NCBI GenBank assembly: GCA_964639935.1
Contig: CAZXGT010000001.1
Coordinates: 6,635-70,634 of the forward strand
Length of the DNA: 64,000 bases
Source of the DNA: an uncultured Phycisphaeraceae bacterium
GTDB lineage: Bacteria; Planctomycetota; Phycisphaerae; Phycisphaerales; UBA1924
Reading direction: 5' to 3'
The translations under genes were made by a program, and so were the position numbers. The notes under the pieces were generated by a model, which was given only the letters and a program-made list of their open reading frames with translations, ran no database searches and was not told the DNA's origin. Below are positions 50,466 through 64,000 of this stretch, one piece after another; positions within the stretch are counted from its first letter, which is position 1; each line of letters opens with the position of its first letter.

Positions 50466-51848
50466 TTAGCCGATGGAGGACTCGGACCGCGAGGCGCCGA
50501 CGGGGATGTGCCCCGGGCGAGCCGTGGCGCGTCCGACCGAGTGGTAGATGAACCCCTCGCGGGCCATCTGCTCGAGGCGGTAGAGGTTGCGTCCGTCGAA
50601 GACGACGGGCGCCTTGAGGCCGTCCTTGACCTTCTGGAAGTCGGGGGACTTGAACTCGTCCCAGTCGGTGCTGATGACCAGGGCGTCGGCGCCCTCGAGC
50701 GCCTCGACCATGGTGTCGCAGACGGTGACGCCGCTGCTTTCCCTGCGGCAGTTGTCGCCCGCGACGGGGTCGTAGGCTCGGACGGCGGCGCCGGCGTCGA
50801 TCGCCCGCTGCATGAGCGTCAGCGACGGGGCCTCGCGAATGTCGTCGGTGTTGGGCTTGAAAGCGATGCCCCAGAAGGCGAGCGTCTTGCCGGCGAGCCC
50901 GCCGTTCTCGGCGAAGTGGCCCTCGATCTTGGCCCAGAACGTGTCGCGCTGATTCTGATTCACGCGGTGGACGCTCTTGAGAAGCTCGGTGGGGCGTCCG
51001 GCGCGATCGCCCATGGAGATGCAGGCCTTGACGTCCTTGGGGAAGCAGGAGCCGCCGTAGCCCAGCCCCGGGTAGAGGAACTGGTTGCCGATGCGCTTGT
51101 CGGAGCACATGCCCTCGCGGACGCGGTTGATGTTGGCGCCGTAGACGTCGCAGAGCCCGGCGATCTCGTTGACGAAGGAGATCTTGGTGGCGAGCATCGC
51201 GTTGGAGGCGTATTTGACCATCTCGGAGGAGAGGATGTCCATCAGGTAAATGGGGTTGCCCTGGCGGACGAAGGGCTCGTAGAGGTCGCGCATGATCTGG
51301 CCGGTTTCCTCATCCTCCACGCCGCAGACCACGCGGTCGGGCTTGTTGAAGTCGTTGAGGGCGGCGCCCTCCTTGAGGAACTCGGGGTTGTTGGCGATGC
51401 GGAAGGGGAGGTCGCCGACCTTCGCGCGGATGCGGTCCCGCACAGCGAGCGAGGTCCCGACGGGGACGGTGCTCTTGACGACGACGGTCTTCGACTTCGC
51501 GCCCGGGCCGAGCTCGAGGATGGCCTCGGCGATGTCGTCGGCGGCGCCGAAGACGTACTTCAGGTCGGCGTGCCCGTCGTCGTCCGAGGGCGTGCCGACG
51601 CAGATGAAGATGATGTCGGCGTCGCGATAGGCGGCCTTGGGATCGGTGGTGAACTTCAGGCGCCCGGCGGCGGTGTTGATCTCCATGAGCTCGGTGAGCC
51701 CGGGCTCGTAGATGGGGCATCCGCCGTCGTTGAGCGTCTTGATCTTCTCGGAGTCGAGATCGAGGCAGGTGACCTCGTTGCCGGTGTTCGAGAAGCACGC
51801 GCCCGTGACGAGCCCGACGTACCCGGAGCCAACCATCGTGAGCTTCAT
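50466..51848 (-). CDS. ugd: UDP-glucose 6-dehydrogenase
   Basis: MKLTMVGSGYVGLVTGACFS...FICVGTP...GGSCFPKDV (catalytic Cys). Confidence 0.92.
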   Translation of the reverse strand: MKLTMVGSGYVGLVTGACFSNTGNEVTCLDLDSEKIKTLNDGGCPIYEPGLTELMEINTAAGRLKFTTDPKAAYRDADIIFICVGTPSDDDGHADLKYVFGAADDIAEAILELGPGAKSKTVVVKSTVPVGTSLAVRDRIRAKVGDLPFRIANNPEFLKEGAALNDFNKPDRVVCGVEDEETGQIMRDLYEPFVRQGNPIYLMDILSSEMVKYASNAMLATKISFVNEIAGLCDVYGANINRVREGMCSDKRIGNQFLYPGLGYGGSCFPKDVKACISMGDRAGRPTELLKSVHRVNQNQRDTFWAKIEGHFAENGGLAGKTLAFWGIAFKPNTDDIREAPSLTLMQRAIDAGAAVRAYDPVAGDNCRRESSGVTVCDTMVEALEGADALVISTDWDEFKSPDFQKVKDGLKAPVVFDGRNLYRLEQMAREGFIYHSVGRATARPGHIPVGASRSESSIG

Positions 51849-51964
51849 GAGTCTGCTCTCCCCGCTGCTTGCGGTGTATTCGGACGATGTTCGCGTCCGA
51901 GCTCGCCCGGGCCGAAGCCCGCGTGAAAAAGTCGATATGGATCGTTCAGTATCGTCGCGGCGGC

Positions 51965-52939
51965 TCAGAAGTTCGGCGTGGGAGGGCGGAAACTGGAAAG
52001 TTCGACGGATCTGAACCATTCGATCGTCTTCGCCAGCCCATCCCGGAGCTCGACGGTCGGCTCCCAGCCGAGCCTGTCGCTCGCGAGGGTGATATCCGGA
52101 CGGCGCTGCGTGGGGTCGTCGGCGGGCAGCTCGCGGTGAACCAACTTGACCTTCGCCCCGGTGAGCTCGATCACGAGTTCGGCGAGCTGTTTGATGGTGA
52201 ACTCGCCGGGGTTGCCCAGGTTGACGGGCCCGGGGAAATCGTCCGGGCCCTCCATCATGCGGATGATGCCCTCGACGAGGTCGTCGCGGTAGCAGAAGGC
52301 GCGGGTCTGGGAGCCGTCGCCGTAGATGGTGAGGTCCTCGCCCTCGAGGGCCTGGCGGATGAAGTTGGAGACGACGCGCCCGTCGTAGGGGTGCATGCGC
52401 GGGCCGTAGGTGTTGAAGATGCGCACAAGACGGATGTTGACGTTGTTGGAGCGGTGGTAGTCGAAGAAGAGCGTCTCGGCGGCGCGCTTGCCCTCGTCGT
52501 AGCAGGCGCGGGGGCCGATCGGGTTGACGTTCCCGCGGTAGCTCTCGGGCTGGGGGTGGACCTCGGGGTCGCCGTAGATCTCGCTGGTCGAAGCCTGAAG
52601 CACCTTCGCTCGGCAGCGCTTGGCCATGCCCAGGACGTTGATGGCCCCGAGCACGGACGTCTTCATGGTCTTGATGGGGTTGTACTGGTAATGCCCCGGG
52701 GCGGCGGGGCAGGCGAGGTTGTAGATCTGATCGACCTCGAGCCAGACGGGGTGGGTGACGTCGTGGCGGACGAGCTCAAAGTTGGGCTCGCCGAGGAGGT
52801 GGGAGACGTTGGACTTCTGGCTGGTGAAGAAGTTGTCCAGGCAGATGACGTCGTGGCCGTCGGCGACGAGCCGCTCGCAGAGATGGGAGCCGAGAAAGCC
52901 GGCGCCGCCGGTGACCAGAATTCGCTGCACGCTCGTCAT
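51965..52939 (-). CDS. uxs: UDP-glucuronate decarboxylase (UDP-xylose synthase)
   Basis: [18 protein letters not shown]...[15 protein letters not shown]...[10 protein letters not shown]...YDEGKRAAE. Confidence 0.9.
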
Positions 52940-62037: not shown

Positions 62038-62101
62038 GATCCGGAGCGTAGCAGAGCCGATGCGGCGCCGACGCGCCCGCGCGGCGGGGGGGCGTCCTGA
62101 G

Positions 62102-63262
62102 ATGCGCATCGCGCACTACCTTCCCCGAGTCAGCATCGCCGAGGGCGGCGTGACCCGCGCCGTGCTCGATCTGACCGACGCGCTCGCGAGGCTCGGCGAG
62201 GGCGTCGAGCTGCTGACCTATCAGGATGGGGACGTCCCGAGCGAATGGGCGGCGTCGGATCGGGCGCCGAGGGTCGCGCTCCTGGACGCGCCCGCGGGGC
62301 CAGCGGGGCTCTTTTCCCGGACGCAGCTCGCGGCGATCGCCCGCACGCTCGACGGCGCGAGCGTGCTGCATCTTCACGCCCCGTGGACGCTCTCCAACCG
62401 GCAGCTCGCGGCGATCGCCCGTCGGCTCGGCGTCCCCTACATCCTGAGCGTCCACGGCATGCTCGACGACTGGTCGATGGCCCAGCGGAACCTCAAGAAG
62501 CGGCTCTACCTGGCGTTCGGCGGCCGGCGGATGCTCGAGCGCGCCGCCGCCGTGCACTGCACCGCCGCCTTCGAGGAGGAGCAGGCGAAGAAGTGGTTCC
62601 CGCGCGGGCGGGCCGTCACCATCCCGCTCGTTTTTGACGTGTCCCCATTCCGCGGCGAGATCGACCCGAGCAAGGCGCCCGGGCTCCCGCCGGGCGGGCG
62701 TCCGCGGCTCCTCTTCCTGAGCCGGCTCCACGAGAAAAAGGGTCTCGATCGCCTGCTCGAAGCGGCGGCGATCCTCCAGAAGCGCGGCGTCGAGACCGAC
62801 GTGCTCGTCGCCGGGACGGGCGAGCCGGCCTACGAACGGCAGATGCGAGAGCTCGCCGCGAGACTCGGTCTCGCCGAGCGAACCCGCTTCCTCGGGCTCG
62901 TCACGGGCGAGGCCAAGTCGGCGCTCTACGCCGCCGCGGATCTTTTCGTGCTCCCGACGAGCCAGGAGAACTTCGGTTTCGTCTGTCCCGAGGCGCTCGC
63001 CTGCGGGACGGCCGTCGTGACGACCCGGGGCGTCGACATCTGGCCCGAGCTGCTCGAGAGCGGCGGGGCGGAGATTGTGGACAATGCGCCCGAGCCGATC
63101 GCGGAGGCGGTTGAAGCGTTGCTCGGAGATCCCGAGCGCCTCGCGGAGATGGGACGTCGCGGGCGCGCGTGGGTGCTCGATCGCTTCGAGGGCGAGCGCG
63201 TGGCGCGGGAGTACCAGTCGCTCTACCGGGACGTGGCGGGCTCGCAGGAGGCGACGCCGTGA
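62102..63262 (+). CDS. Glycosyltransferase family 4
   Basis: MRIAHYLPRVSIAEGGVTRAVLDL..., then GT-B C-terminal motifs LLFLSRLHEKKGLD...LPTSQENFGFVCPEALACGTAVV (E-x7-E-like). Confidence 0.85.
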   Translation: MRIAHYLPRVSIAEGGVTRAVLDLTDALARLGEGVELLTYQDGDVPSEWAASDRAPRVALLDAPAGPAGLFSRTQLAAIARTLDGASVLHLHAPWTLSNRQLAAIARRLGVPYILSVHGMLDDWSMAQRNLKKRLYLAFGGRRMLERAAAVHCTAAFEEEQAKKWFPRGRAVTIPLVFDVSPFRGEIDPSKAPGLPPGGRPRLLFLSRLHEKKGLDRLLEAAAILQKRGVETDVLVAGTGEPAYERQMRELAARLGLAERTRFLGLVTGEAKSALYAAADLFVLPTSQENFGFVCPEALACGTAVVTTRGVDIWPELLESGGAEIVDNAPEPIAEAVEALLGDPERLAEMGRRGRAWVLDRFEGERVAREYQSLYRDVAGSQEATP

Positions 63263-64000
63263 GCAGGAGACTCTTCACCGATCGCCGGCGTCGCTCGTGG
63301 GAGCCGAGGGTGCGCGCGGTCTCGCACAAGGCGACGTGGTGGCTCGGGAAGCACGCTCCGGACCTCAGCCCGCTGGTCTACGTCGTCGGGTACCCCAAGA
63401 GCGGGACGACCTGGGTGTGCCAGCTCCTTGGCGATTACCTCCAGCTGCCCTTCCCGCGCGCGTCGCTGCTCCCGGTGATGTTCCCCGCGGTGGTGCACGG
63501 TCACGAGGAGGCGCGAGAGCACTACCGCTACGGCGCCTACGTGCTTCGCGACGGGCGCGACGTGATGGCCTCGCTCTACTTCCATCTCGCCCGGCGGATG
63601 CCGAGCGGGGACCATCCGCGACTCACGCGCCGGCAGCGCCGCATGTTCCCCGGGCTCATCAACAAGGACGACGTCAAGGCGAACTTCACGGCCTTCCTTG
63701 AGGCGCAGATGCGCGATCCCTTCGCCAGCCGGTTCCACTGGGGCGAGCACGTCCGGCGCTCGCTCGACGCGATGGGCCCCGGCGTCGCCTCCGTGAAGTA
63801 CGAAAAGCTCCTGACCGACGGCCGGGCGGAGCTCTCGCGCGTGGTCGAGACGATCACCGGCGAGCCCGCTGAGGAAGAGCGCGTTGGCTGGACCATCGAG
63901 AAGTTCTCCTTCGCCCGCCAGGCCGGGCGTCGGGCCGGGAGCGAGAAGCGGGCGTCGTTCCTGCGCAAGGGCGCCGCGGGGGACTGGAAGAACCACTTTA
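63259..64000 (+). CDS. Sulfotransferase, 3'-truncated by the window edge
   Basis: Hand translation from a GTG that overlaps the upstream stop (GTGA). VYVVGYPKSGTTWVCQLL is the 5'-PSB loop, and ...RKGAAGDWKNHF is the classical Sulfotransfer_1 C-terminal motif. It is absent from the ORF track because no stop lies in the window. Confidence 0.85.
   Translation, partial: MSRRLFTDRRRRSWEPRVRAVSHKATWWLGKHAPDLSPLVYVVGYPKSGTTWVCQLLGDYLQLPFPRASLLPVMFPAVVHGHEEAREHYRYGAYVLRDGRDVMASLYFHLARRMPSGDHPRLTRRQRRMFPGLINKDDVKANFTAFLEAQMRDPFASRFHWGEHVRRSLDAMGPGVASVKYEKLLTDGRAELSRVVETITGEPAEEERVGWTIEKFSFARQAGRRAGSEKRASFLRKGAAGDWKNHF

What the first reader, a model, noticed from the sequence alone, without database searches (positions are those of the whole stretch)
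50466..64000. Gene island for a probably sulfated, O-acetylated GlcA/Xyl-containing polysaccharide with four sulfotransferases
Thirteen genes sit within 13.5 kb. They are ugd and uxs (UDP-GlcA and UDP-Xyl supply), ATP sulfurylase, an SDR epimerase, two GT4 genes, one GT2, two WcaF-type O-acetyltransferase domains, and four separate sulfotransferase genes. Each sulfotransferase has a recognisable PAPS 5'-phosphosulfate-binding loop: HKTGTTWL, THRSGTTFL, CGRSGTTLL and YPKSGTTWV. The last also carries RKGxxGDWKNHF. Several junctions overlap by 4-8 nt (57971, 59479, 60122, 63259), which implies co-translation. Dedicated bacterial pathways for multiply sulfated glycans are rare and mostly uncharacterised. 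Four sulfotransferases imply several distinct sulfation positions. No Wzx/Wzy, Wza/Wzc, ABC exporter or priming transferase is visible, and the cluster runs off the right edge.
Basis: partly seen in the sequence, partly recalled or inferred. Interest (0 to 1): 0.75.

Follow-up and report, generated by a model that had tools for sequence, protein, structure and literature searches.

The report
Sulfated surface-glycan gene island, Phycisphaeraceae
The region is the left half of a ~27.5 kb gene island in an uncultured planctomycete (Phycisphaeraceae) that looks built to make a sugar polymer carrying many sulfate and acetyl groups, a known kind of system but an unusually sulfotransferase-rich one, in a group usually seen only as a degrader of such polymers.

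Summary
Window 50466-64000 carries 12 ORFs with 13 catalytic domains: ugd, a true UDP-GlcA decarboxylase (uxs), ATP sulfurylase, a CDP-tyvelose-2-epimerase-like SDR, two GT4, a GT2-WcaF fusion, a second WcaF-like acetyltransferase and four sulfotransferases. All four have intact PAPS-binding motifs.

Near-identical contigs (98-99.8% DNA identity) extend the cluster past the window edge. They add two more sulfotransferases (six in total), a ~10-TM protein that may be a polymerase, and a MOP/Wzx-type flippase (AF2 pLDDT 87; best PDB folds MurJ and WzxE). They also add a third GT4, an EEP-family protein, a secreted 597-aa unknown and a probable UDP-GlcA 4-epimerase. The island ends with a DASS sulfate-type transporter, a PAP phosphatase and APS kinase. 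It is about 27.5 kb and 23 genes.

The order is kept at 50-86% protein identity in two other Phycisphaeraceae genomes, with a varying sulfotransferase set.

The most likely function is Wzx-dependent assembly of a multiply sulfated, O-acetylated uronic-acid/xylose glycan with its own PAPS supply. No priming transferase, Wza or Wzc was found. I class it as a new member of a known kind (synechan xss, Vibrio and Cobetia sulfated CPS loci). Interest is moderate. Nothing here is tested biochemically.

The parts
50466..51848 (-). ugd, UDP-glucose 6-dehydrogenase (460 aa)
   Evidence: Pfam UDPG_MGDP_dh_N, central and C domains, E 3e-60, 6e-35 and 6e-34. NCBIfam nucleotide-sugar dehydrogenase, 442 bits against a cutoff of 190. 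GC3 0.91. Protein is 100% identical in L010 and 74% in L004.
51965..52939 (-). uxs, UDP-glucuronate decarboxylase (324 aa)
   Evidence: phmmer against PDB gives human UXS1 (4GLL, 2B69) at E 2e-122. The next SDR class scores about 1e-39. Pfam Epimerase and GDP_Man_Dehyd.
53086..54003 (+). ST1, sulfotransferase (~305 aa) with a non-canonical start
   Evidence: Weak Pfam Sulfotransfer_1 and Sulfotransfer_3 hits (E 3e-8 and 1e-7). It has the 5'-PSB motif YHKTGTT and the 3'-PB motif REQRAMIAS. The family is large: 3793 representatives at E<=1e-3, whose N-termini read M(L)LHIGYHKTGTTWLQ. The first canonical in-frame start (53188) lies after the PAPS loop. Against two strain contigs there are 7 and 10 synonymous and 0 nonsynonymous differences.
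54007..54030 (.). Hairpin (10-bp stem, T-run) between the convergent ST1 and sat genes; terminator-like
   Evidence: Terminator scan. This is a consensus match only.
54059..55255 (-). sat, ATP sulfurylase (398 aa; PUA_2 plus ATP-sulfurylase, no APS-kinase domain)
   Evidence: Pfam E 2e-93 and 4e-52. NCBIfam sulfate adenylyltransferase, 516 bits against a cutoff of 387.
55642..56700 (+). SDR2, extended-SDR nucleotide-sugar epimerase, CDP-tyvelose 2-epimerase-like (352 aa; an alternative start at 55561 gives 379 aa)
   Evidence: PDB 9RL0 and 1ORR (CDP-tyvelose 2-epimerase) at E 4e-43 and 6e-34. Pfam Epimerase E 4e-37.
56721..57974 (+). GT4a, WcaI-like GT4 glycosyltransferase (417 aa)
   Evidence: Pfam Glyco_trans_4_4 and Glyco_trans_1_4. 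NCBIfam WcaI family, E 8e-32, below cutoff.
57971..59482 (+). GT2 glycosyltransferase fused to a WcaF-type O-acetyltransferase (503 aa)
   Evidence: Pfam Glycos_transf_2 covers residues 10-109 (E 2e-16) and Hexapep lies at the C-terminus. NCBIfam WcaF family, residues 339-500, 199.7 bits against a cutoff of 192. The fusion is common in Phycisphaerales MAGs. Its start overlaps the GT4a stop by 4 nt.
59479..60129 (+). Second WcaF-like O-acetyltransferase (216 aa)
   Evidence: NCBIfam WcaF family E 1e-53, 181 bits, just under the cutoff of 192; also HpsU E 1e-42. Overlaps the upstream gene by 4 nt.
60122..60976 (+). ST2, sulfotransferase (284 aa), TPST/Stf-like Sulfotransfer_3
   Evidence: Pfam Sulfotransfer_3 E 7e-28. 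PDB TPST1/2 and mycobacterial 2ZQ5, E 7e-8. Motifs THRSGTT and RDGRAVVRS. Overlaps the upstream gene by 8 nt.
61000..62037 (-). ST3, sulfotransferase (345 aa), CurM/OLS-ST- and TPST-like
   Evidence: Pfam Sulfotransfer_3 E 2e-37. PDB 4GOX E 9e-19 and TPST2 E 7e-17. Motifs CGRSGTT and RDPRAVVLS. Absent from relative L009.
62102..63262 (+). GT4b glycosyltransferase (386 aa)
   Evidence: Pfam Glycos_transf_1 E 1e-31 and Glyco_trans_4_4 E 1e-22. NCBIfam HpsP-like E 2e-49, below cutoff. The exact protein is found on contig L001.
63259..64000 (+). ST4, cytosolic-SULT-like sulfotransferase, cut by the window edge (full length 284 aa, or 267 aa from GTG 63310)
   Evidence: Pfam Sulfotransfer_1 E 1e-14 for the partial gene and 1e-19 for the full gene. 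PDB estrogen and SULT1A1 sulfotransferases, E 1e-10, with RKGxxGDWKNHF aligned. The full gene is on L001, L002 and L013.
48047..50450 (.). Possible accessory pair at the left border: a UbiA-family decaprenyl-phosphate phosphoribosyltransferase-like gene (48047-49000, minus strand) and a 456-aa multi-TM protein (49080-50450, plus strand)
   Evidence: NCBIfam DPPR synthase E 6e-61, 206 bits against a cutoff of 234. About 11-13 hydrophobic segments. Both are syntenic next to ugd in L004 (56% and 31% identity) and in L010. Whether they belong to the island is uncertain.

Best explanation
The finding is the left half of a ~27.5 kb, 23-gene island, from window 50466 to window-equivalent ~78.0 kb. 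The organism is an uncultured Phycisphaeraceae bacterium (Planctomycetota) found in a microbial-mat metagenome.

Proposed mechanism. Only the gene content and folds are shown; every biochemical step below is inferred from family membership and not tested here.
1. PAPS supply. A DASS-type permease imports sulfate. Sat makes APS and CysC makes PAPS. A HAL2/CysQ-type nucleotidase removes the inhibitory product PAP.
2. Sugar precursors. Ugd, Uxs and a probable UDP-GlcA 4-epimerase supply UDP-GlcA, UDP-Xyl and possibly UDP-GalA. A TyvE-like 2-epimerase supplies a further sugar.
3. Repeat-unit assembly. Three GT4 enzymes and one GT2 build an oligosaccharide on a polyprenyl-phosphate carrier at the cytoplasmic face of the membrane.
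4. Decoration. Six soluble, mutually divergent PAPS-dependent sulfotransferases and two WcaF-type acetyltransferases decorate the unit in the cytoplasm, which is the only compartment holding PAPS and acetyl-CoA.
5. Flipping and polymerisation. The 534-aa MOP/Wzx-type flippase moves the decorated unit across the membrane. The adjacent 468-aa multi-TM protein is the candidate Wzy-type polymerase or ligase.
6. Missing steps. Priming and outer-membrane export are encoded elsewhere.

The expected product is a strongly polyanionic, multiply sulfated, O-acetylated surface or released glycan rich in uronic acid and xylose. Its sulfation pattern would vary between lineages, because the sulfotransferase set differs between relatives.
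For: - UXS identity.
- All six sulfotransferases have 5'-PSB and 3'-PB motifs and no hydrophobic segment (max KD19 below 1.5). They fall into at least four unrelated subfamilies; only ST5/ST6 (31% identity) and ST2/ST3 (22%) are detectably related.
- ST5 and ST6 are closest to the bacterial 3RNL structure and to heparan-sulfate 3-OST/NDST, which are carbohydrate sulfotransferases.
- Extension used L001 (99.8% DNA identity over the shared 5.7 kb) and two stretches of one NCBI contig, L002 and L013 (its GT2-WcaF protein is 99% identical to the window's).
- APS kinase scores 289 bits against a cutoff of 163. The bisphosphate nucleotidase scores 298 against 267. The DASS symporter hit is E 1e-28.
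- TM534: homologues are named polysaccharide biosynthesis or O-antigen export protein. The AF2 model has pLDDT 87 and pTM 0.85. All top Foldseek PDB hits are MOP flippases: MurJ (TM 0.64-0.80) and WzxE (TMt 0.72). A separate bona fide MurJ sits at 35342-37120.
- 4-nt overlaps run through GT4b-ST4-ST5-TM468-TM534-GT4c-ST6.
- The same gene order is kept in two other Phycisphaeraceae genomes at 50-86% protein identity.
- ST1 shows 17 synonymous and 0 nonsynonymous differences against two strain contigs.
- Literature: PAPS genes plus sulfotransferases in a polysaccharide cluster are described as the hallmark of sulfated polysaccharide synthesis (PMC11641403). The synechan xss model places sulfation on the repeat unit in a Wzx/Wzy pathway (PMC8205485).
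Against: - No chemistry or expression data exist for this organism.
- No initiating phosphoglycosyl transferase, PCP/Wzc or OPX/Wza was found in the window or in the extended island.
- TM468 has no Pfam or NCBIfam hit even at E<=10, and its AF2 model failed (pLDDT 48.8). The polymerase assignment rests only on position and topology.
- ST2 and ST3 resemble protein-tyrosine and polyketide sulfotransferases more than carbohydrate ones.
- ST1 lacks a canonical start codon.
- The right half was read from a near-identical strain, not from the window's own contig.
Confidence: 0.72

Rival explanations
1. The chemistry is the same but the destination differs. The island makes a sulfated LPS O-antigen, or a short lipid-linked oligosaccharide that is ligated to lipid A-core or to a surface protein. 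It does not make a capsular or released exopolysaccharide. TM468 would then be a ligase or oligosaccharyltransferase rather than a polymerase.
For: The island lacks Wza/Wzc and a priming transferase, as typical O-antigen clusters do. It has only four GTs. TM468 is unclassifiable. A sulfated O-antigen locus with a Wzx but no Wzy has been proposed in Vibrio KMM 8419.
Against: No WaaL/Wzy_C or PglB/PglL-type domain was detected. OPX and PCP genes can be unlinked, as in synechan (XssT). WcaF/WcaI/HpsP/HpsU-like best hits point to EPS-type clusters, but this is weak evidence.
Confidence: 0.2
2. Some or all of the sulfotransferases act on non-glycan acceptors, such as tyrosines of secreted peptides or proteins, lipids or a small metabolite. 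The glycosyltransferase genes are merely neighbours.
For: The best solved relatives of ST2 and ST3 are protein-tyrosine sulfotransferases and the CurM/OLS polyketide sulfotransferases. ST4 resembles cytosolic small-molecule SULTs. Sequence does not predict sulfotransferase acceptor specificity well.
Against: The sulfotransferases are interleaved with GTs, acetyltransferases and the flippase, and are translationally coupled to them through 4-8 nt overlaps. This arrangement is conserved across genera. No PKS/NRPS, RiPP precursor or lipid-synthesis genes are present in the island. ST5 and ST6 resemble heparan-sulfate sulfotransferases.
Confidence: 0.06
3. The co-location is incidental. Sat, CysC and CysQ serve ordinary assimilatory sulfate reduction, and some sulfotransferase genes (for example ST1) are decaying pseudogenes. 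The polymer would then be an ordinary non-sulfated acidic EPS.
For: ST1 has no canonical start, and an indel-variable C-rich tract lies directly upstream. In some bacteria PAPS is also an assimilation intermediate.
Against: ST1 shows only synonymous changes between strains. All six sulfotransferases keep both PAPS-binding motifs. Six sulfotransferases in 27 kb, flanked on both sides by PAPS genes and conserved in three lineages, is not a chance arrangement.
Confidence: 0.02

Closest known systems
Synechan xss cluster of Synechocystis sp. PCC 6803 (PMC8205485)
   Same: It is a Wzx-type pathway cluster in which sulfotransferases sit among glycosyltransferases. Sulfation is modelled on the lipid-linked repeat unit. 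The outer-membrane exporter is encoded elsewhere.
   Different: xss has 2 sulfotransferases, 8 GTs, a recognisable Wzy, a PCP and XssQ/R/S regulators, and no PAPS genes. This island has 6 sulfotransferases, 4 GTs, 2 acetyltransferases and a full PAPS module with transporter and PAP phosphatase. It has no recognisable Wzy, PCP or regulators. The phylum also differs. No orthology was tested.
Sulfated CPS loci of marine Gammaproteobacteria (Vibrio sp. KMM 8419, PMC11641403; Cobetia marina KMM 1449, PMC11766843)
   Same: PAPS-synthesis genes and sulfotransferases lie inside a polysaccharide locus, which those authors call the hallmark of sulfated polysaccharide biosynthesis. The Vibrio CPS also carries an O-acyl group.
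   Different: The Vibrio locus uses CysDN-type sulfurylase and an ABC (Kps) exporter, and has 3 sulfotransferases spread over about 95 kb. Here the sulfurylase is Sat-type, the route is via a Wzx-type flippase, and 6 sulfotransferases lie in 27 kb. Only the title and abstract line of the Cobetia paper were seen.
Putative sulfated GAG-like EPS cluster of Pontiella sulfatireligans F21 (Kiritimatiellae, PVC superphylum; PMC7356697)
   Same: It is from a PVC-superphylum bacterium and has a PF13469 sulfotransferase inside a GT2/GT4-rich cluster. In that organism sulfated exopolymer was detected chemically.
   Different: That cluster has one sulfotransferase, is oriented to hexosamine and N-sulfation, and has no reported PAPS module. 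Here the precursors are uronic acid and xylose, and all sulfotransferases look like O-sulfotransferases.
Colanic acid (wca) and cyanobacterial hormogonium polysaccharide (hps) clusters
   Same: The best NCBIfam matches of the acetyltransferases (WcaF, HpsU) and GT4s (WcaI, HpsP) are to these clusters. Both are Wzx/Wzy-type acidic EPS systems using ugd.
   Different: All GT matches are below the family cutoffs. Neither wca nor hps contains sulfotransferases or PAPS genes.

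Membership tests
Sulfated-polysaccharide biosynthetic gene cluster (hallmark as stated in PMC11641403) | PAPS-dependent sulfotransferase genes with intact 5'-PSB and 3'-PB motifs inside the cluster | tested here: met
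   Six sulfotransferases, all with both motifs.
Sulfated-polysaccharide biosynthetic gene cluster (hallmark as stated in PMC11641403) | PAPS synthesis genes (ATP sulfurylase and APS kinase) in the same cluster | tested here: met
   sat lies in the window. cysC, a HAL2/CysQ-type nucleotidase and a DASS transporter lie at the right end in the near-identical strain contig L013 and in L006 and L009. The window's own contig ends before them.
Sulfated-polysaccharide biosynthetic gene cluster (hallmark as stated in PMC11641403) | Glycosyltransferases and nucleotide-sugar genes in the cluster | tested here: met
   Three GT4, one GT2, ugd, uxs and two further SDR epimerases.
Sulfated-polysaccharide biosynthetic gene cluster (hallmark as stated in PMC11641403) | Ester sulfate demonstrated chemically in the polymer | not testable with these tools
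   The organism is uncultured and known only from metagenomes.
Wzx/Wzy-dependent polysaccharide pathway | MOP-superfamily Wzx flippase | tested here: met
   TM534: AF2 pLDDT 87; Foldseek top hits are MurJ and WzxE, probability 1.0, TM up to 0.80. Homologues are annotated as polysaccharide biosynthesis or O-antigen export protein. There is no direct Pfam hit.
Wzx/Wzy-dependent polysaccharide pathway | Wzy polymerase | tested here: inconclusive
   TM468 has at least 8 hydrophobic segments, a ~110-aa loop and 4-nt overlaps with ST5 and the flippase gene. It has no family hit, and the AF2 model is unusable (pLDDT 48.8).
Wzx/Wzy-dependent polysaccharide pathway | Initiating phosphoglycosyl transferase (WbaP/PglC or WecA type) in the cluster | tested here: not met
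   No Bac_transf or Glycos_transf_4 (MraY-like) hit in any window gene or in the called genes of L013. It may be encoded elsewhere.
Wzx/Wzy-dependent polysaccharide pathway | PCP (Wzc/Wzz) and OPX (Wza) export proteins | tested here: not met
   None in the window or the island (same calls). The rest of the genome was not searched.
Synechan-type xss system | XssQ (STAND) and XssR/S two-component regulators next to the cluster | tested here: not met
   No such domains in the island. The only nearby signalling gene is a Ser/Thr kinase beyond cysC.
UDP-glucuronate decarboxylase (UXS) | Full-length, high-scoring similarity to characterised UXS, clearly above other extended SDRs | tested here: met
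   E 2e-122 to human UXS1 over residues 5-311, against 2.5e-39 for the next SDR class.
WcaF-family EPS O-acetyltransferase | NCBIfam NF007797 score above the curated cutoff (192 bits) | tested here: met
   The fusion protein scores 199.7 bits, which is met. The stand-alone gene scores 181.4 bits, just below the cutoff.

The most novel reading that the evidence does not exclude
Phycisphaeraceae, a planctomycete lineage regarded as a consumer of sulfated algal and cyanobacterial polysaccharides, are themselves producers of a hyper-sulfated, acetylated uronic-acid/xylose surface polymer that resembles ulvan or glycosaminoglycans in charge. They make it from a self-contained island that couples sulfate import, PAPS synthesis and PAP recycling to six regiospecific polysaccharide O-sulfotransferases from at least four subfamilies. 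The sulfation code would differ between lineages through gain and loss of sulfotransferase genes. One of these enzymes (ST1) would be translated from a non-canonical AUU/AUC start.
Probability: 0.4. Interest if true: 0.65.

Novelty: new member of a known kind. Interest (0 to 1): 0.5.

Why it matters
- Enzymes. Bacterial polysaccharide sulfotransferases with defined regiochemistry are scarce and are wanted for enzymatic synthesis of heparin-like and other sulfated glycans. This island offers six divergent candidates with their likely acceptor pathway and a compact PAPS-regeneration module.
- Ecology. In the microbial-mat papers read here, sulfated EPS production is credited mainly to cyanobacteria and Planctomycetes are treated as degraders (PMC9723792, PMC12555021). 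A conserved producer island in Phycisphaeraceae would change carbon and sulfur budgets and models of cation binding and carbonate precipitation in mats.
- Limits. This is still a genomic prediction of a kind already described in cyanobacteria and marine Gammaproteobacteria. It is useful rather than surprising.

Tried and rejected
- Pfam (E<=10) and NCBIfam (E<=1) scans of TM468, TM534, the 597-aa secreted protein and the 456-aa membrane protein gave nothing usable.
- hhalign of a 3-sequence TM534 profile against the window's MurJ gave probability 0.2; the profile was too shallow. An HMM profile of 20 TM534 homologues against PDB sequences gave no hit. Only the fold comparison worked.
- The AF2 model of TM468 from a 9-sequence, 3-lineage alignment had pLDDT 48.8, so I did not search with it.
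- A metagenome-contig scan with the 597-aa protein found nothing. The scan with its alignment found only a 2.9 kb contig at 50% identity.
I got round this through cluster members.
- For ST1 I considered a homopolymer sequencing error, phase variation at the C7 tract, and programmed frameshifting from ATG 53069. I rejected all three. The ATG is out of frame by different offsets in three independent assemblies, and L011 has an in-frame TGA only 7 codons before the loop.
- I considered ST1 to be a pseudogene and rejected that because of 17 synonymous and 0 nonsynonymous differences.
- A DnaA-box search to explain the GC-skew switch gave 3 hits against 1.4 expected, with no cluster.
- No sigma-70-like promoters were found in the island. 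This is uninformative for this phylum.

Full report
**1. What is in the window**

The window has about 69% G+C, so raw ORF lists are noisy. I accepted ORFs with GC3 of about 0.85-0.95 and the expected codon-position gradient. Window 50466-64000 holds 12 such ORFs.

| Gene | Coordinates (strand) | Main evidence |
|---|---|---|
| ugd | 50466-51848 (-) | three UDPG_MGDP_dh domains |
| uxs | 51965-52939 (-) | E 2e-122 to human UDP-GlcA decarboxylase; next SDR class about 1e-39 |
| ST1 | ~53086-54003 (+) | weak Sulfotransfer_1 and _3 hits |
| sat | 54059-55255 (-) | PUA_2 plus ATP-sulfurylase, no APS-kinase domain; above NCBIfam cutoff |
| SDR2 | 55642-56700 (+) | closest to CDP-tyvelose 2-epimerases, E 4e-43 |
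| GT4a | 56721-57974 (+) | WcaI-like GT4 |
| GT2-WcaF fusion | 57971-59482 (+) | WcaF model 199.7 bits against a cutoff of 192 |
| second WcaF-like acetyltransferase | 59479-60129 (+) | 181 bits, just under the cutoff |
| ST2 | 60122-60976 (+) | Sulfotransfer_3 |
| ST3 | 61000-62037 (-) | Sulfotransfer_3 |
| GT4b | 62102-63262 (+) | Glycos_transf_1 |
| ST4 | 63259 to beyond 64000 (+) | Sulfotransfer_1 |

The 4-nt and 8-nt overlaps at 57971, 59479, 60122 and 63259 are real. There are 12 genes carrying 13 domains, not 13 genes.

The other 48 kb of the window is housekeeping: ClpP, YidC, MnmE, TatD, PFK, NadE, MurJ, Lpd, secreted proteases and others. It holds no cysC, Wza/Wzc or priming transferase.

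**2. Organism and extension past the window edge**

Homologues of the GT2-WcaF fusion are annotated as coming from Phycisphaerales and Phycisphaeraceae MAGs. The one related locus in the GTDB genome set is titled 'uncultured Phycisphaeraceae bacterium'.

Exact-protein look-ups recovered near-identical contigs:
- L001, from a microbial-mat metagenome, is 99.8% identical over 5.7 kb.
- L002 and L013 are two stretches of one 44.5 kb NCBI MAG contig. Its GT2-WcaF protein is 99% identical to the window's.
- L010 and L011 are 98.1% and 98.6% identical.

To the right of the window, L013 shows the following genes in order:
- ST4, complete (284 aa)
- ST5 (305 aa)
- a 468-aa multi-TM protein (TM468)
- a 534-aa multi-TM protein (TM534)
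- GT4c
- ST6 (279 aa)
- a membrane-anchored EEP-family protein, on the opposite strand
- a secreted 597-aa protein with no family hit
- SDR3, whose best PDB relatives include 6ZL6 and MoeE5; from my own knowledge these are UDP-GlcA 4-epimerases
- a DASS/SLC13-type anion symporter with TrkA_C domains
- a HAL2/CysQ-type 3'(2'),5'-bisphosphate nucleotidase, 298 bits against a cutoff of 267
- APS kinase, 289 bits against a cutoff of 163
- a Ser/Thr kinase, which marks the end of the island

The island is therefore about 27.5 kb and 23 genes. It holds six sulfotransferases, four GTs, two acetyltransferases, four nucleotide-sugar enzymes and a complete PAPS supply and recycling set.

**3. The flippase and the candidate polymerase**

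TM534 has no Pfam or NCBIfam hit. Its more distant homologues carry Polysacc_synt_3 and names such as 'O-antigen/teichoic acid export membrane protein'.

An AF2 model built on 20 homologues is confident (pLDDT 87, pTM 0.85). Every significant PDB fold match belongs to the MOP superfamily. MurJ comes first (TM 0.64-0.80), followed by the lipid III flippase WzxE and then MATE transporters. The genome has a separate canonical MurJ, so TM534 is best read as the island's Wzx-type flippase.

TM468 has at least 8 hydrophobic segments and a ~110-aa hydrophilic loop. Its gene overlaps those of ST5 and the flippase by 4 nt. It could not be classified, because its AF2 model failed. Calling it a Wzy polymerase is an inference from position and topology.

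**4. The sulfotransferases**

All six carry a 5'-PSB loop and a 3'-PB R-x7-S motif. None has a hydrophobic segment, so they are cytoplasmic. Only ST5/ST6 (31% identity) and ST2/ST3 (22%) are detectably related to each other.

Their nearest solved structures differ:
- ST1: none
- ST2: TPST and mycobacterial Stf-like
- ST3: CurM/OLS sulfotransferases and TPST
- ST4: cytosolic SULTs
- ST5 and ST6: a bacterial sulfotransferase (3RNL) and heparan-sulfate 3-OST/NDST

ST1 belongs to a large family, with 3793 representatives at E<=1e-3.

**5. Conservation in relatives**

Two other Phycisphaeraceae genomes keep the gene order from GT4a to cysC at 50-86% protein identity. These are L006, and L009 from a 2.76 Mb contig. 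L009 lacks ST3. L006 lacks ST2 and has only a partial match to the GT2-WcaF fusion.

A third lineage (L003-L005) keeps UbiA, the membrane protein, ugd, uxs, SDR2, GT4a, the GT2-WcaF fusion, the acetyltransferase and ST2. After that it carries a Gal-3-O-sulfotransferase-like gene, methyltransferases and sat in another arrangement.

The pattern is a conserved core with a variable decoration set, as in serotype-type loci.

**6. Mechanism**

This section is inferred from family membership.
- Sulfate is imported, activated to PAPS by Sat and CysC, and PAP is removed by the nucleotidase.
- UDP-GlcA, UDP-Xyl and probably UDP-GalA, plus a 2-epimerised sugar, are supplied locally.
- Four GTs assemble a repeat unit on a polyprenyl carrier.
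- Six sulfotransferases and two acetyltransferases decorate it in the cytoplasm.
- The Wzx-type protein flips it, and TM468 probably polymerises or ligates it.
- Priming and outer-membrane export are encoded elsewhere, as for XssT in synechan.

Rivals. The most credible alternative is the same chemistry with a different destination: an O-antigen or a protein-linked glycan (about 0.2). Non-glycan acceptors (about 0.06) and an incidental association (about 0.02) are unlikely, given the interleaving, the translational coupling and the conservation.

**7. Comparison with what is known**

The closest described systems are:
- the synechan xss cluster, with 2 sulfotransferases, Wzx/Wzy/PCP and no PAPS genes (PMC8205485)
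- the Vibrio KMM 8419 sulfated CPS locus, with cysNDC, 3 sulfotransferases and an ABC exporter; its authors call PAPS genes plus sulfotransferases in a polysaccharide cluster the hallmark of sulfated polysaccharide synthesis (PMC11641403)
- a Cobetia locus (title and abstract line only)
- the putative Pontiella cluster in the PVC superphylum (PMC7356697)

This island meets that hallmark. It is not an xss-type system, because it has no XssQRS regulators, no PCP and no recognisable Wzy.

No paper in the searchable library mentions both Phycisphaerae and sulfotransferase. The microbial-mat papers I read treat Planctomycetes as degraders and note only that some MAGs carry a sulfotransferase gene.

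**8. Verdict**

It is a new member of a known kind. It stands out for having six divergent sulfotransferases and for its host lineage. Interest is moderate (0.5). The main value is a set of candidate polysaccharide sulfotransferases and a testable claim that Phycisphaeraceae produce sulfated glycans.

**9. The ST1 start codon**

The PAPS loop of ST1 lies upstream of the first canonical in-frame start, at 53188. ATG 53069 is out of frame in three independent assemblies, which differ by indels whose lengths are not multiples of three in the C-rich tract. L011 has an in-frame TGA only seven codons before GGC 53098.

From 53098 to the stop, the strains differ by 7 and 10 synonymous changes and by no nonsynonymous ones. 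This includes the 30 codons before 53188.

Family members begin M(L)(L/I/V)HIGYHKTG. ATT 53089 would give MHIGYHKTG. ATC 53095 is the only other near-cognate option. ATT reads GTT in L010, which alone has an upstream in-frame ATG. Initiation at one of these near-cognate codons is the most economical reading, and it is untested.

Noticed in passing
window 53069-53188 (also L010 5880-6001 and L011 365-485): ST1 has no canonical in-frame start upstream of its PAPS-binding loop. The C-rich tract just upstream differs between three strain assemblies by indels whose lengths are not multiples of three. The coding part shows only synonymous differences. A non-canonical AUU or AUC start is the likeliest explanation.
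   Followed up: partly
window 48047-50450: A UbiA-family gene sits directly left of ugd. It is most like decaprenyl-phosphate phosphoribosyltransferase (206 bits against a cutoff of 234). It is divergently paired with a 456-aa protein that has ~11-13 TM segments and no family hit. The pair is syntenic in a relative at 56% and 31% identity. It could be a polyprenyl-phosphate-pentose donor and GT-C-like transferase that adds a periplasmic decoration to the same glycan.
   Followed up: partly
window 57971-58900 (GT2 module of the fusion protein): The GT2 half is 62-70% identical to the N-terminal ~300 aa of many ~650-800-aa GT2 proteins from Planctomycetota that carry a different C-terminal part. 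This module is unusually conserved and is recombined with different partners.
   Followed up: no
L013 13333-15126 and 11997-13019 (window-equivalent ~71.4-73.2 kb and ~70.0-71.0 kb): Two conserved island genes have no clear role. One is a secreted 597-aa protein with no Pfam or NCBIfam hit, though sequence patches such as FWWG and GLDAFG suggest a glycoside-hydrolase-like fold. The other is a 2-TM-anchored endonuclease/exonuclease/phosphatase-family protein.
   Followed up: no
L003-L005, L006 and L009 compared with the window: The sulfotransferase complement differs between related genomes. ST3 is absent in L009. ST2 is absent in L006. In L003-L005 a Gal-3-O-sulfotransferase-like gene and methyltransferases take the place of the ST3-ST6 block. 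In that lineage toxin-antitoxin (HipA, AbiEii) genes are also inserted inside the locus.
   Followed up: partly
window 1-30000: GC skew is strongly negative from 1 to 12 kb and strongly positive from 24 kb onward, whatever the gene strand. yidC and mnmE lie at 2.8-6.4 kb and a ParA-like gene at 38.3 kb. This suggests a replication origin or terminus near 12-24 kb, but no DnaA-box cluster was found.
   Followed up: partly
window 25917-28262 and 41487-43028: Two secreted proteins combine PPC (and in one case PKD) domains with a C-terminal type I dockerin. One also has a matrixin (M10) protease domain. A large DUF4953 met-zincin lies at 45016-47988.
   Followed up: no
window 54007-54030: A strong 10-bp-stem hairpin with a T-run lies between the convergent ST1 and sat genes. 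It is a likely shared terminator.
   Followed up: no
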